DNA of 50,781 nucleotides from a virus: the IMG/VR virus record IMGVR_UViG_3300033075_000810. One strand, written 5' to 3'. Shown piece after piece: positions 27,554 to 28,464 of this stretch (position 1 is the stretch's first letter; the number at the start of each line of letters is the position of its first letter). A program made the position numbers and the translations under genes. The notes under the pieces are model-generated. The model was not told the origin of the DNA. It saw nothing but the letters and a program-made list of their open reading frames with translations, and did not search any database.

Positions 27554-27606
27554 GTCGCTGACGGTGTCTTTCAAACTGGTGGTGAAGTAACCGTCAACCG
27601 CAACTC
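27554..27606 (-). repeat. conserved hairpin module copy R1 (GACGGUG-UCUUUCA..UGAAGUAACC-GUC + GCAACUC)
   Basis: One of four aligned copies with conserved UCUUUCA / UGAAGUAACC / GCAACU blocks. The outer stems covary between copies. Confidence 0.55.
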
Positions 27607-27615
27607 ACCGGCGAG

Positions 27616-27694
27616 TGAGGGGGCAGGAGTTGGACCTGCACCTCTTGGTCGTCGCCCATACAACCAAGCATCCTAGTCATTGGACCACCCCCTC
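27616..27694 (-). ncRNA. tRNA-like domain T1 with 15-nt 'anticodon' loop (YrlA-like candidate)
   Basis: Perfect 7-bp acceptor GAGGGGG/CCCCCUC. D-arm. Stem CUUGG/CCAAG closing a 15-nt loop. T-arm GCAGG-TCCAACT-CCTGC. Confidence 0.5.
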
Positions 27695-27723
27695 AGAGTG
27701 CCCGTTCAGGGAGAGAGGTATGC

Positions 27724-27776
27724 CCAGAGTGTCTTTGCACAGATAGTTAGTGAAGTAACCCTGGACCGCAACTTCC
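27724..27776 (-). repeat. conserved hairpin module copy R2
   Basis: agagUGUCUUUGCA..GUGAAGUAACCcugg..GCAACU. Confidence 0.5.
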
Positions 27777-27788
27777 CTGAACGGAGCA

Positions 27789-27859
27789 GTGGGCGTGGAT
27801 GGAATTGAACCACCGACCTGCCGGTTAAACCCGGCTGCTCTAACACTGAGCTACACGCC
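27789..27859 (-). ncRNA. tRNA-like T2: perfect cloverleaf but 6-nt anticodon loop GUUUAA (UUA triplet)
   Basis: GGGCGUG/CACGCCC acceptor. D-arm GCUC-AGUGUUA-GAGC. Stem GCCGG/CCGGC with a 6-nt loop. T-arm GGUGG-TTCAATT-CCAUC. Confidence 0.5.
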
Positions 27860-27974
27860 CCCGATCTCGGCTTTGCTAACCATATGTGACTGCCGAGAAG
27901 AGCCACACTTCAGTCCCTCCTAAGGCGTGTCTGAGTCGCATTAGGCCATATTATGCTACCTACTTTTCATTAGG

Positions 27975-27991
27975 GCTGGAATCGAACCAGC
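27975..27991 (-). other. orphan T-arm (GCTGG-TTCGATT-CCAGC) 14 nt downstream of tRNA-Cys-like gene
   Basis: Canonical T-arm with no room for the rest of a tRNA. Confidence 0.35.
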
Positions 27992-28005
27992 ATCTACTCA
28001 GACAG

Positions 28006-28082
28006 AGGCCACGCCTGGAATCGAACCAGTAGGAACGAGTTTGCAGCCCGCCGTAGGGAACCTCCCCACTACCCGCATGGCC
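28006..28082 (-). tRNA. tRNA-Cys(GCA)-like with 12-nt D-loop
   Basis: GGCCAUG/CGUGGCC acceptor, U73 (Cys-type). Loop CUGCAAA. T-loop TTCGATT. Confidence 0.5.
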
Positions 28083-28115
28083 TTTTGAGCCGGCACCGCA
28101 TTGACAAAGATCGAG

Positions 28116-28190
28116 AGGCGGGGGCTGGATTTGAACCAGCGACCTTCCTGAGTTTTACCCCAGGACGCTCTGCCACTGAGCTACCCCGCC
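28116..28190 (-). ncRNA. tRNA-like T4 with 10-nt 'anticodon' loop
   Basis: Perfect acceptor GGCGGGG/CCCCGCC. D-arm GCUC-AGUGGCA-GAGC. Stem UCCUG/CAGGA around GGGUAAAACU. T-arm GCUGG-TTCAAAT-CCAGC. Confidence 0.5.
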
Positions 28191-28237
28191 GTTTCGCCCC
28201 TGCAACTCCCGATGCGAGTTTGTGCCAGAGGAAACAA

Positions 28238-28288
28238 GTCGCTGACGGCGTCTTTCAACCACATGAAGTATCCGTCAACTGCAACTCT
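28238..28288 (-). repeat. conserved hairpin module copy R3
   Basis: GACGGCG-UCUUUCA..AUGAAGUAUCC-GUC..GCAACUC. An extra GCAACUCCC copy lies at 28202-28210. Confidence 0.5.
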
Positions 28289-28297
28289 CTGGCGAGG

Positions 28298-28389
28298 CGG
28301 TCGGGCCGGGACTTGAACCCGGCACCTGCCCTGTTGAACCGGCGTCGCCCCTCACCGATTGCGGGCCGTTCTGCGTTAAACTACCGACC
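28298..28389 (-). ncRNA. tRNA-like T5 (92 nt; canonical T-arm CCGGG-TTCAAGT-CCCGG, irregular core)
   Basis: Acceptor GGUCGGU/CCCGACC (one mismatch). The interior does not fold as a standard D or anticodon arm. Confidence 0.35.
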
Positions 28390-28410
28390 GTACTTGAGGG
28401 GGAAATAATC

Positions 28411-28464
28411 GCCGCCGGGTCTTTTCATCACACTGGTTGAAGTAACCGACGACTGCAACTCCCC
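28411..28464 (-). repeat. conserved hairpin module copy R4
   Basis: CGCCGGGUC-UUUUCA..UGAAGUAACC-GACG..GCAACUC. Confidence 0.5.

What the first reader, a model, noticed from the sequence alone, without database searches (positions are those of the whole stretch)
27554..28464. Conserved repeat R1-R4: hairpin with UCUUUCA / UGAAGUAACC bulged helix and GCAACUC tail
Four copies lie at 27554, 27724, 28238 and 28411, plus partial GCAACUCCC copies at 28202 and 30648. Three blocks are invariant while the outer stem sequences change compensatorily (GACGGU/ACCGUC, CCAGAG/CUGG, GACGGC/CCGUC). This pattern is typical of a protein-binding RNA helix. It is not CRISPR-like, because spacing is irregular and the repeats are imperfect.
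Basis: seen in the sequence. Interest (0 to 1): 0.65.

Follow-up and report, generated by a model that had tools for sequence, protein, structure and literature searches.

The report
Mini Y-RNA gene array beside phage Ro60

Summary
The repeats are real: 4 exact pattern matches against 0.04 expected by chance. The functional strand is the minus strand, the same strand as the TROVE/Ro60 (rsr) gene 28663-30615.

On that strand each copy is a 70-83 nt hairpin:
- the motif UACUUC, a short loop and an A-rich strand;
- a 3' internal loop ending UAUNUC.

Relatives occur in every related rsr locus fetched and in 16 loci found by DNA pattern alone. That gives 68 distinct copies. P1 and P2 covary strongly and hold 114 G-U pairs that fit only this strand.

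Longer paralogs carry the same stem plus T, acceptor-like and D arms in YrlA order. One is in the window (13363-13513). Rfam's YrlA model aligns end to end to another, in related locus L008, but below threshold.

So R1-R4 are most likely stem-only Y RNAs (YrlB/Yrn2-like). They are probably released from a promoter-driven precursor by RNase P and 3' processing at tRNA-like elements 2-6 nt away (one gap is 33 nt), and then bound by Rsr. Binding and processing are inferred, not shown. Verdict: new variant of a known kind, moderate interest.

The parts
28395..28467 (-). R4: mini Y-RNA-like hairpin. P1 UGAGGGG/CCCCUCA; 5' loop AGUUGCA; P2 GUCGUCGG/CCGGCGGC with two G-U pairs; UUACUUCA; 3' loop GAUUAUUUC.
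   Evidence: Covariance model R1 scores 74.4 bits, E 1e-18. Fold. Bounds.
28224..28293 (-). R3: mini Y-RNA-like hairpin (P1 GCCAGAG/CUCUGGC).
   Evidence: Model R1 scores 70.4 bits. Fold z = -3.3.
27702..27784 (-). R2: mini Y-RNA-like hairpin with an 11-bp P1 (CCGUUCAGGGA/UCCCUGAACGG). It is the most divergent copy in its 3' internal loop.
   Evidence: Model R1 scores 61.7 bits over 27706-27780. Bounds.
27540..27612 (-). R1: mini Y-RNA-like hairpin. P1 27606-27612 / 27540-27546; 5' loop AGUUGCG 27599-27605; P2 27590-27598 / 27557-27565; UACUUCA 27583-27589; 3' loop GACCUAUUUC 27547-27556.
   Evidence: Model R1 scores 72.8 bits. Fold z = -3.35.
13363..13513 (-). E5: long paralog. It has the same P1, GGUGCAG loop, P2, CUACUUC and CUAUGUC stem module, but the apex carries a T-arm-like hairpin, an acceptor-like hairpin and a D-arm-like hairpin in YrlA order. 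It sits in the main tRNA array, 0-1 nt after tRNA-Asp and about 4 nt before tRNA-Pro.
   Evidence: Model R1 scores 50.2 bits. Anatomy. tRNA neighbours.
28663..30615 (-). rsr: gene for a Ro60/TROVE-domain protein. The start is GUG at 30615, or AUG at 30600 as in the JGI gene call.
   Evidence: Pfam TROVE E 2.3e-20. The nearest solved structure is Thermus phage phiLo Ro60, 9KOP/9L5Y, E 4e-13. Homologs at 50-79% identity.
28296..28389 (-). tRNA-like element t4 (94 nt), between R4 and R3. It starts 5 nt after R4 and ends 2 nt before R3.
   Evidence: ARAGORN. Alignment A5 shows canonical acceptor and T arms but an aberrant middle.
28115..28190 (-). tRNA-like element t3, with an oversized anticodon loop and no assignable anticodon.
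   Evidence: Rfam tRNA 55.7 bits. ARAGORN reports 'tRNA-???'.
27789..27860 (-). tRNA-like element t2 with a 6-nt anticodon loop (GUUUAA). It ends 4 nt before R2.
   Evidence: Rfam tRNA 59.7 bits. ARAGORN reports 'tRNA-???'. The L003 homolog has GCUUAA.
27615..27695 (-). tRNA-like element t1 with a 13-nt anticodon loop and a non-canonical T loop (UCCAACU). It starts 6 nt after R2 and ends 2 nt before R1.
   Evidence: Rfam tRNA 40.9 bits. ARAGORN reports 'tRNA-???'.
27912..28009 (-). Weak YrlA-like element with T, acceptor-like and D arms in YrlA order. It lacks the family's GKUGCA and UACUUC stem motifs.
   Evidence: Rfam YrlA RF02553 scores 28.9 bits, E 0.0023, against a gathering score of 69.
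28593..28620 (-). Sigma-70-like promoter (TTGACA-16-TAACAT), just after the stem-loop that follows the rsr stop codon.
   Evidence: 3 sites found against 0.6 expected in shuffles.
28507..28534 (-). Sigma-70-like promoter (TTGACA-16-TAGGAT), about 40 nt upstream of R4.
28200..28210 (-). Solo 5' half-motif GGGAGUUGCAG with no UACUUC and no 3' partner strand, directly before tRNA-like t3. Its function is unknown; it may be a remnant.
   Evidence: no model hit here.
30646..30658 (-). Solo half-motif CCAGGGAGUUGCG in the rsr leader, about 30 nt before the GUG start. It is either a vestige of the leader Y element that relatives carry, or a retained half-site.
   Evidence: The same 12-mer is in the L003 leader. 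Whole elements occupy this leader in L008, L014, L022, L023, L029 and L030.

Best explanation
R1-R4 are four paralogous genes for small non-coding RNAs of the bacterial Y RNA kind. They are transcribed from the minus strand, downstream of the Ro60 ortholog rsr.

Structure. Each RNA is a 70-83 nt hairpin whose 5' and 3' ends pair (P1). An asymmetric internal loop follows, with near-invariant bases: 5' A-G-K-U-G-C-A/G and 3' G-A-Y-Y-A-U-N-U-C. Then come a second stem (P2) and an apex that begins with invariant UACUUC and ends in an A-rich strand. The stem module is the same one found in longer paralogs that also carry the tRNA-like domain typical of YrlA. R1-R4 are therefore stem-only Y RNAs, comparable to YrlB, Yrn2 or the phiLo phage Yrl RNAs.

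Proposed mechanism:
1. (Inferred) The array is transcribed from two sigma-70-like promoters placed after rsr.
2. (Inferred) tRNA-like elements lie next to the hairpins, 2-6 nt away at five of the six junctions (33 nt at the R3-t3 junction). They recruit RNase P and a 3' tRNA-processing enzyme, which cut the precursor into separate hairpins.
3. (Inferred) The P1 / internal loop / P2 module binds the outer face of the Rsr ring, as Y RNAs do.
4. (Inferred) Because they lack the tRNA-like effector module, the mini forms would gate or occupy Rsr, or link it through the UACUUC apex to another partner. The long form E5 would be the one that tethers an exoribonuclease such as PNPase.

Shown here: the repeats, the strand, stems P1 and P2, conservation across genomes, linkage to rsr, and the shared stem with YrlA-type RNAs.
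For: Repeat reality: 4 exact matches against 0.04 expected by chance.

Structure:
- On a MAFFT alignment of 23 copies from 8 loci, P1 is 100% paired with 9 of 11 pairs changed on both sides. P2 is 94.7% paired with 7 of 9. No shuffle of 500 reaches the observed covariation score, and sliding the 3' partners drops pairing to 38-52%.
- RNAalifold predicts the same P1 and P2 on its own.
- A second set of 34 distinct copies, found by DNA pattern, gives 91.3% pairing with 14 of 16 pairs changed on both sides.

Strand: 114 G-U pairs among 1101 stem cells; 93.4% paired on this strand and 83.0% on the other. All 40 model hits in the rsr-seeded loci lie on the rsr strand.

Linkage to rsr:
- The gene is TROVE/Ro60.
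- Copies lie next to rsr in all 8 loci fetched through Rsr homologs.
- They also lie next to rsr in 10 of the 16 pattern-found loci that have model hits. Most of the others are short contigs, stored fragments, or have the hit at a contig end.
- Two cellular Planctomycetes rsr loci carry them too.

Kinship to YrlA:
- Long paralogs carry T, acceptor-like and D arms in YrlA order.
- Rfam YrlA aligns end to end to L008:7924-8059 at 37.3 bits, E 5e-7. It places GGGAAGUUGC on the model's cggCgaAUGC and the family's P2 on the model's 7-bp stem.
- Rfam YrlA also hits L034 and L036 at 32-42 bits.

Unpaired bases are near-invariant across 68 distinct copies: G, U, G, C and A of the 5' loop in 66-68 of 68; UACUUC in 65-68 of 68; U.UC of the 3' loop in 67-68 of 68.

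Transcription and processing: two promoters upstream. Gaps between hairpins and tRNA(-like) elements are 0-7 nt in most cases, in the window and in relatives.

Precedent:
- Bacterial rsr loci encode a YrlA plus a hairpin Y RNA, and D. radiodurans makes Yrn2, tRNA-Asp and Yrn1 as one precursor (PMC4201824).
- A phage Ro60 binds hairpin Yrl RNAs and host PNPase (PMC12135203).
Against: - There is no expression, end-mapping or binding data. Rsr binding and RNase P/Z processing are inferences.
- The motif reported for Rsr recognition in bacterial Y RNAs (GNCGAAN0-1G, or 'CGAA') is absent. The equivalent position reads GRAGKUGCRG.
- Rfam's YrlA model gives no hit on R1-R4 even at E <= 10. It stays below its gathering score (69 bits) on the long paralogs.
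- The long copy E5 lies 15 kb from rsr, in the tRNA array, so linkage to rsr is not absolute.
- The apical 'helix' is weak or absent in about 40% of copies.
- The terminator scan found no intrinsic terminator at the end of the array.
Confidence: 0.8

Rival explanations
1. The hairpins are structured RNAs that work with a partner other than Rsr. For example, they could recruit, sponge or decoy a host nuclease or a tRNA-processing or tRNA-modifying enzyme through the invariant UACUUC apex. Their position next to rsr would then reflect shared regulation only.
For: The canonical GNCGAA Rsr-recognition motif is absent (sequence). UACUUC is the most invariant block and has no assigned reader. The hairpins are tightly coupled to tRNA-like elements. 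E5 and the L001 copies lie in tRNA arrays away from any rsr gene in the stretch examined.
Against: The stem module is shared with YrlA-type RNAs, and it aligns to the Rsr-binding stem of the Rfam YrlA model. The elements co-occur with rsr on the same strand wherever the contigs are long enough, in both phage-like and cellular loci.
Confidence: 0.1
2. The hairpins have no function as free RNAs. They are spacer, processing or stability elements of a tRNA(-like) operon, such as RNase entry sites or protective stems.
For: Every copy in the window lies within 6 nt of a tRNA(-like) element on at least one side. No expression data exist.
Against: Spacer hairpins would not keep about 20 unpaired nucleotides near-invariant across genomes whose Rsr proteins are only 50-74% identical. 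Cellular loci have the mini form after rsr with no tRNA-like element nearby. Some arrays are back-to-back hairpins without tRNAs, for example L019 with 4 copies in 412 nt.
Confidence: 0.07
3. The repeats act at the DNA level, as binding sites for a DNA-binding protein, recombination sites, or a miniature mobile repeat.
For: They are imperfect inverted repeats in intergenic DNA, and both strands can be drawn as hairpins.
Against: The two strands are not equivalent: 114 G-U pairs would be A-C mismatches on the other strand. The changes preserve pairing, not sequence. Orientation is always that of rsr. No target-site duplications or dispersed copies appear elsewhere in the 50.8-kb window.
Confidence: 0.02

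Closest known systems
YrlA (Rfam RF02553), the bacterial and phage Y RNA with a tRNA-like domain (Chen et al. 2014, PMC4201824)
   Same: Both are encoded beside rsr on the same strand. Both have 5' and 3' ends paired into P1, an internal loop with a conserved UGC on the 5' side, a 7-9 bp P2, and then a YUAY motif (here UUAC, AUAC or CUAC). Long paralogs of this family (E5, L008:7922-8060, L011, L014, L025) add T, acceptor-like and D arms in the same permuted order. The Rfam model aligns end to end to one of them.
   Different: R1-R4 have a 6-14 nt loop where YrlA has the tRNA-like domain. GNCGAAN0-1G is replaced by GRAGKUGCRG. The 3' internal loop (GAYYAUNUC) and the invariant UACUUC are specific to this family. 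Rfam scores are nil for R1-R4 and 29-42 bits for long forms, against a gathering score of 69.
Hairpin Y RNAs: YrlB of S. Typhimurium and M. smegmatis, and Yrn2 of D. radiodurans (PMC4201824)
   Same: These are second, smaller Y RNAs of an rsr locus. They are long hairpins formed by the 5' and 3' ends with a small loop and no full tRNA-like domain. They are made from one precursor together with a YrlA/Yrn1 and, in D. radiodurans, a tRNA.
   Different: There are usually one per locus; here there are four, and up to six in relatives. No sequence model of YrlB or Yrn2 was available to test homology. The loop here is not clearly pyrimidine-rich.
Yrl1 and Yrl2 of Thermus phage phiLo, with phage Ro60 (PMC12135203; PDB 9KOP, 9L5Y)
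   Same: These are phage-encoded hairpin Y-like RNAs next to a phage Ro60. They have a stem, internal bulge and stem layout. Their Ro60 is the closest solved structure to this Rsr. Binding to Ro60 and host PNPase was shown for them.
   Different: The phiLo RNAs lie upstream of Ro60 and carry the CGAA motif. No interleaved tRNA-likes were described for them. The Rsr match to phiLo Ro60 covers only residues 292-444.
Metazoan Y RNAs (Rfam RF00019)
   Same: Both are small RNAs whose paired termini carry a conserved, partly unpaired Ro60-binding region, with a variable apical part.
   Different: There is no sequence similarity (GGUCCGA against GKUGCA) and no Rfam hit. Metazoan Y RNAs are Pol III transcripts with an oligo-U tail, not RNAs released by tRNA-type processing.

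Membership tests
Bacterial/phage Y RNA, YrlA type (Rfam RF02553) | Encoded within about 4 kb of a Ro60/TROVE gene, on the same strand. | tested here: met
   R4 to R1 lie 195-1123 nt downstream of the rsr stop, on the same strand. The same holds in 8 of 8 Rsr-seeded loci, in 10 of 16 pattern-found loci, and in 2 cellular loci.
Bacterial/phage Y RNA, YrlA type (Rfam RF02553) | The 5' and 3' ends pair into a long stem interrupted by a conserved internal loop or bulge. | tested here: met
   P1 and P2 are supported by covariation in two alignments and by RNAalifold.
Bacterial/phage Y RNA, YrlA type (Rfam RF02553) | A GNCGAAN0-1G (CGAA) motif near the 5' end. | tested here: not met
   No copy has GNCGAA on the 5' strand. 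The equivalent position reads GG(A/G)AG(G/U)UGCAG. The Rfam alignment places GGGAAGUUGC on cggCgaAUGC.
Bacterial/phage Y RNA, YrlA type (Rfam RF02553) | A tRNA-like domain with T arm, acceptor-like hairpin and D arm. | tested here: not met
   R1-R4 have only a 6-14 nt apical loop. The domain is present in the long paralogs E5, L008:7922-8060, L011:1966-2105, L014:5701-5831 and L025.
Bacterial/phage Y RNA, YrlA type (Rfam RF02553) | Score at or above Rfam's gathering threshold (69 bits). | tested here: not met
   R1-R4 get no hit at E <= 10. Long forms score 28.9-42.3 bits.
Bacterial/phage Y RNA (any type) | Physically bound by Ro60/Rsr. | not testable with these tools
   This needs gel-shift assays, RIP or CLIP with the protein encoded at 28663-30615.
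Hairpin Y RNAs (YrlB / Yrn2 / phiLo Yrl) | A long hairpin without a full tRNA-like domain, encoded in an rsr locus alongside a YrlA-type RNA. | tested here: met
   Hairpins R1-R4. YrlA-type RNAs are in the same genome at 13363-13513 and, weakly, at 27912-28009. Cellular loci have long forms upstream and one mini form downstream of rsr.
Hairpin Y RNAs (YrlB / Yrn2 / phiLo Yrl) | Sequence homology to a described YrlB, Yrn2 or Yrl RNA. | not tested
   No model or sequence of these RNAs was available in the tools used. Rfam holds only YrlA.
CRISPR array | Near-identical direct repeats at regular spacing, separated by unique spacers. | tested here: not met
   Start-to-start spacings are 168, 513 and 174 nt. 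Copies are 70-88% identical. The intervals hold tRNA-like genes.
tRNA (Rfam RF00005) | A cloverleaf with a 7-nt anticodon loop. | tested here: not met
   R1-R4 get no tRNA hit. The neighbouring tRNA-likes match the model, but ARAGORN cannot assign an anticodon to three of the four and all four have aberrant anticodon regions.

The most novel reading that the evidence does not exclude
In this clade of large phage-like genomes, the one-piece YrlA may have been taken apart into two separately encoded modules. One is a Ro60-binding stem-only hairpin, amplified to 4-6 copies. The other is a free-standing, non-decoding tRNA-like scaffold with a degenerate anticodon arm. The two are arranged alternately, so that host RNase P and RNase Z cut out both. 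Together they would let the phage load its own (or the host's) Rsr with several different adaptors. They could also decoy host tRNA-directed enzymes or defence nucleases. That would be a programmable Ro60 adaptor cassette, not a simple Y RNA locus. The conserved half-site in the rsr leader would then be an Rsr autoregulatory site.
Probability: 0.15. Interest if true: 0.7.

Novelty: new variant of a known kind. Interest (0 to 1): 0.45.

Why it matters
Y RNAs are the obligate partners of Ro60. Outside a few model bacteria they are hard to find, because their sequences drift, and hairpin-type Y RNAs (YrlB, Yrn2) had no searchable signature.

This finding contributes four things:
- A covariation-supported model of a Y RNA subfamily that Rfam's YrlA model does not reach. 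The subfamily occurs in Planctomycetes-type rsr loci and in related large phage-like genomes.
- Evidence that stem-only and tRNA-domain-bearing Y RNAs share one stem module.
- A different conserved internal loop (GKUGCA / GAYYAUNUC) where other bacteria have CGAA. This makes the rules of Rsr recognition directly testable.
- Evidence that the phage-like side multiplies the mini form and punctuates it with non-decoding tRNA-like elements. This points to tRNA-processing enzymes as the maturation route and raises the question of why a phage needs several Ro60 adaptors.

It does not change the known picture of what a Y RNA is.

Tried and rejected
- Rfam at gathering scores over the whole window, and at E <= 10 over 27300-31000. 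No family covers R1-R4; only tRNA hits and one weak YrlA hit at 27912-28009 appeared.
- GenBank phages. Megablast of 27300-30900 found nothing. Blastn of the array hit only tRNA genes through the tRNA-like parts. Tblastn with Rsr found only relatives at under 30% identity.
- The search for related loci with Rsr in IMG/VR found no relative.
- The exact-pattern scan of IMG/VR gave one true locus (L001) and one match (L002) that looks like chance inside coding sequence and has no P1 or P2.
- The CRISPR-like reading is rejected (irregular spacing, tRNA-like genes in the intervals).
- The plus-strand reading is rejected on G-U asymmetry and weaker plus-strand folds for R2 and R4 (z = -1.1 and -0.7).
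- The inner 'bulged helix' as a covarying helix is not supported (78% paired on the MAFFT alignment, no double changes). It is absent from the RNAalifold consensus. The predicted UUCA/UGAA helix is weak (no better than -3.6 kcal/mol) and appears in about 29 of 50 mini forms.
- I looked for a 3' partner that would make the solo motif at 28200-28210 the 5' half of a large YrlA enclosing tRNA-like t3. None was found by eye, and the model gives no hit there.
- I looked for the leader motif upstream of rsr in all relatives. Only the window and L003 have the solo form. L007's match is probably just its ribosome-binding site.
- The intrinsic terminator scan of 27300-30900 found none.
- PHROGs and Pfam on 20 window ORFs were mostly blank. 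PhoH with an intein-like insert and a few enzymes were hit. The phage assignment therefore rests on context, not on capsid or tail genes.
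Full report
**1. Observation**

The region was read on both strands. The four repeats exist at the stated places. The 23-nt pattern AGTTGCRGTNNNNGGNTACTTCA matches exactly four times, at 27583-27605, 27751-27773, 28264-28286 and 28438-28460, all on the minus strand. Dinucleotide-preserving shuffles of the window expect 0.04 matches. A fifth match with two mismatches lies at 13484-13506. The partial GGAGTTGC copies at 28200-28209 and 30645-30654 are also real.

R2, R3 and R4 each deviate by a base or an inserted base.

**2. Surroundings**

The ORF 28663-30615(-) is a TROVE/Ro60 protein (Pfam E 2.3e-20). Its nearest solved relative is the Ro60 of Thermus phage phiLo.

The window carries 31 tRNA or tRNA-like genes, all on the minus strand. 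Four of them lie inside the finding, at 28296-28389, 28115-28190, 27789-27860 and 27615-27695. ARAGORN cannot assign an anticodon to three of these. The alignment shows canonical acceptor, D and T arms but degenerate anticodon arms: 6-nt, oversized or 13-nt loops, or inserted hairpins.

Two sigma-70-like promoters on the minus strand sit between rsr and R4, at 28620-28593 and 28534-28507; shuffles expect 0.6 such sites in the region.

The order on the RNA strand is: rsr, promoters, R4, t4, R3, a solo motif, t3, a tRNA-like/YrlA-like patch, t2, R2, t1, R1, next gene. Gaps between hairpins and tRNA-likes are 2-6 nt, except 33 nt between R3 and t3.

The genome has no close relative in GenBank phages. 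Its Rsr is identical to a protein on a 114,781-bp JGI contig. Most ORFs are orphans. A PhoH-like ATPase with an intein-like insert, an NAD-dependent ligase and a SET-domain protein are present. "Large phage" is therefore an inference from context.

**3. Anatomy on the correct strand**

Read on the minus strand, each repeat is longer than described.
- R1: GCCGGUG/CACCGGC
- R2: CCGUUCAGGGA/UCCCUGAACGG
- R3: GCCAGAG/CUCUGGC
- R4: UGAGGGG/CCCCUCA

The bounds are 27540-27612, 27702-27784, 28224-28293 and 28395-28467.

**4. Relatives**

Rsr has many homologs at 50-79% identity in metagenomes. I fetched eight loci through them. One IMG/VR locus came from a DNA pattern scan.

A covariance model built from 23 mini copies finds 40 hits in these loci and the window, all on the rsr strand. 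In the window it finds R1-R4 (61.7-74.4 bits) and the long copy 13363-13513 (50.2 bits). With filters off it finds nothing else.

Pattern scans of GTDB genomes and JGI metagenomes gave 23 more loci. Of these, 16 have clear model hits, and there are 39 hits in all counting one marginal hit in L012. In 10 of those 16, an rsr homolog lies adjacent on the same strand. Most of the others are short contigs, stored fragments, or have the hit at a contig end; L025 is an exception.

Two cellular Planctomycetes loci also carry the family. One is on a 2.79-Mb contig with rtcA and RNase II next to rsr. Both have long forms upstream of rsr and a single mini form about 50 nt after its stop, with no tRNA-likes.

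**5. Structure statistics**

| Test | Result |
|---|---|
| P1, structure-blind MAFFT alignment A3 | 100% paired; 9 of 11 pairs changed on both sides |
| P2, same alignment | 94.7% paired; 7 of 9 pairs changed on both sides |
| 500 shuffles | none reaches the observed covariation score |
| 3' partners slid by 1-3 columns | pairing falls to 38-52% |
| RNAalifold consensus | predicts exactly P1 and P2 |
| Second set, 34 distinct rows | 91.3% paired; 14 of 16 pairs changed on both sides |

The second alignment was fitted to the model, so it leans towards the structure.

Over 68 distinct copies there are 114 G-U pairs among 1101 stem cells. Pairing is 93.4% on this strand and would be 83.0% on the complement. 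This fixes the strand and argues against a DNA-level repeat.

Unpaired bases are near-invariant: G, U, G, C and A of the 5' loop in 66-68 of 68 copies; UACUUC in 65-68 of 68; U.UC of the 3' loop in 67-68 of 68.

It shows no double changes, is absent from the RNAalifold consensus, and is a weak UUCA/UGAA helix in about 29 of 50 mini forms. It is better described as a conserved sequence motif.

**6. What it is**

Eighteen copies are "long". Their apex holds extra hairpins, a T arm alone, or a variable hairpin plus T arm, acceptor-like hairpin and D arm in the permuted order that defines YrlA. Examples of the last kind are L008:7922-8060, L011:1966-2105, L014:5701-5831, L025 and the window's 13363-13513.

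Rfam's YrlA model aligns end to end to L008:7924-8059 at 37.3 bits (E 5e-7 for that search; gathering score 69). It places the family's GGGAAGUUGC on the model's cggCgaAUGC, its P2 on the model's 7-bp stem, and its ACU on the model's CUA, the position of the published YUAY motif. It gives 32-42 bits on the cellular long forms.

The stem of R1-R4 is therefore the Rsr-binding stem module of a divergent YrlA clade, and R1-R4 are stem-only versions.

This fits published knowledge:
- Bacterial rsr loci encode a YrlA/Yrn1 plus a hairpin Y RNA (YrlB, Yrn2).
- Yrn2, tRNA-Asp and Yrn1 are made as one precursor.
- M. smegmatis YrlA is cut by RNase P (PMC4201824).
- A phage Ro60 binds hairpin Yrl RNAs and host PNPase (PMC12135203).

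**7. Mechanism**

Shown: the repeats, the strand, P1 and P2, conservation, linkage to rsr, and the stem shared with YrlA-type RNAs.

Inferred:
- Transcription starts from the two promoters.
- RNase P cuts at the 5' ends of the tRNA-likes, and RNase Z or trimming acts at their 3' ends. The short gaps, 0-7 nt at most junctions in all phage-like loci, are the argument.
- Rsr binds the P1 / loop / P2 module.
- The mini forms lack the tRNA-like effector module. They would occupy or gate Rsr, or couple it to a partner that reads UACUUC. The long form would tether an exoribonuclease.

**8. Differences from the known family, and novelty**

The GNCGAAN0-1G (CGAA) motif is not present. The tRNA-like domain is absent from R1-R4. 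Rfam thresholds are not met. Membership of "YrlA" in the strict sense therefore fails, while "works like a Y RNA" remains the best reading.

Two features look specific to the phage-like loci. The mini form is amplified to 3-6 copies, and it is interleaved with non-decoding tRNA-likes. The two cellular loci examined have one mini form and no tRNA-likes.

I rate this a new variant of a known kind, with moderate interest.

**9. Open points**

- The solo half-motifs at 28200-28210 and in the rsr leader at 30646-30658. The leader 12-mer is identical in L003, whereas six other relatives carry a whole element in that leader.
- What reads UACUUC.
- The tRNA-like/YrlA-like patch at 27912-28074.
- The function of the tRNA-likes.

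Noticed in passing
window 13363-13513 (-): A long YrlA-type paralog of the repeats: the same stem module plus T-like, acceptor-like and D-like hairpins. It sits inside the main tRNA array, 15 kb from rsr, 0-1 nt after tRNA-Asp (13515-13588) and about 4 nt before tRNA-Pro (13282-13358). Rfam's YrlA model does not detect it, even at E <= 10.
   Followed up: partly
window 27615-27695, 27789-27860, 28115-28190, 28296-28389 (-): Four tRNA-like genes with normal acceptor, D and T arms but non-decoding anticodon regions: a 6-nt loop GUUUAA, an oversized loop, a 13-nt loop, and a 94-nt form with inserts. Relatives carry the same kind of element with inserted hairpins in the anticodon arm (alignment A5).
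   Followed up: partly
window 27912-28074 (-): Overlapping weak Rfam hits to tRNA-Sec (27973-28074, 32 bits) and YrlA (27912-28009, 28.9 bits). This is a patch of T, acceptor-like and D arms without the family's GKUGCA and UACUUC stem. In the relative L003, an ORF for ribosomal protein L7/L12 occupies the corresponding position.
   Followed up: no
window 30646-30658 (-) and L003 4962-4975: The half-motif CCAGGGAGUUGC is conserved in the rsr 5' leader of the window and its closest relative, while the flanks differ. In L008, L014, L022, L023, L029 and L030 a complete Y element sits in that leader. It may be a vestige or an Rsr half-site for autoregulation.
   Followed up: partly
L034 (2.79-Mb contig) and L036 (Planctomycetaceae MAG): Cellular rsr loci of Planctomycetes carry the same RNA family: long forms upstream of rsr and one mini form about 50 nt after its stop, with rtcA and RNase II next door in L034. 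This suggests the phage-like genomes share or took the rsr and Y RNA set from such hosts.
   Followed up: partly
window 42821-44536 (-): A PhoH-like ATPase interrupted by a LAGLIDADG / homing-endonuclease (intein-like) segment at about residues 250-340.
   Followed up: no
window 30870-31346 (+) and 31358-33505 (-): A SET-domain protein and an NAD-dependent DNA ligase (adenylation, OB, HhH and BRCT domains) lie next to rsr. The ligase-rsr neighbourhood is kept in L003 and L006.
   Followed up: no
window 10885-10959 (-) and 6042-6124 (-): There are further odd tRNA calls in the main array: one with an unassignable 2-nt 'anticodon', and an 83-nt tRNA-Lys(CTT) that Rfam did not report at gathering score.
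   Followed up: no
window 28621-28651: A 12-bp GC-rich stem-loop (CCCCGCCUGUGA / UCACAGGCGGGG) with an A/U-rich loop lies immediately after the rsr stop and immediately before the first array promoter. The scan does not call it a terminator because it has no U tail.
   Followed up: no
L019 11-412, L022 1060-1456, L029 5680-6072: In some soil-metagenome relatives the mini hairpins stand back to back, 4-5 copies only 7-83 nt apart (mostly about 10 nt), without tRNA-likes between them. Interleaving is therefore not obligatory.
   Followed up: no
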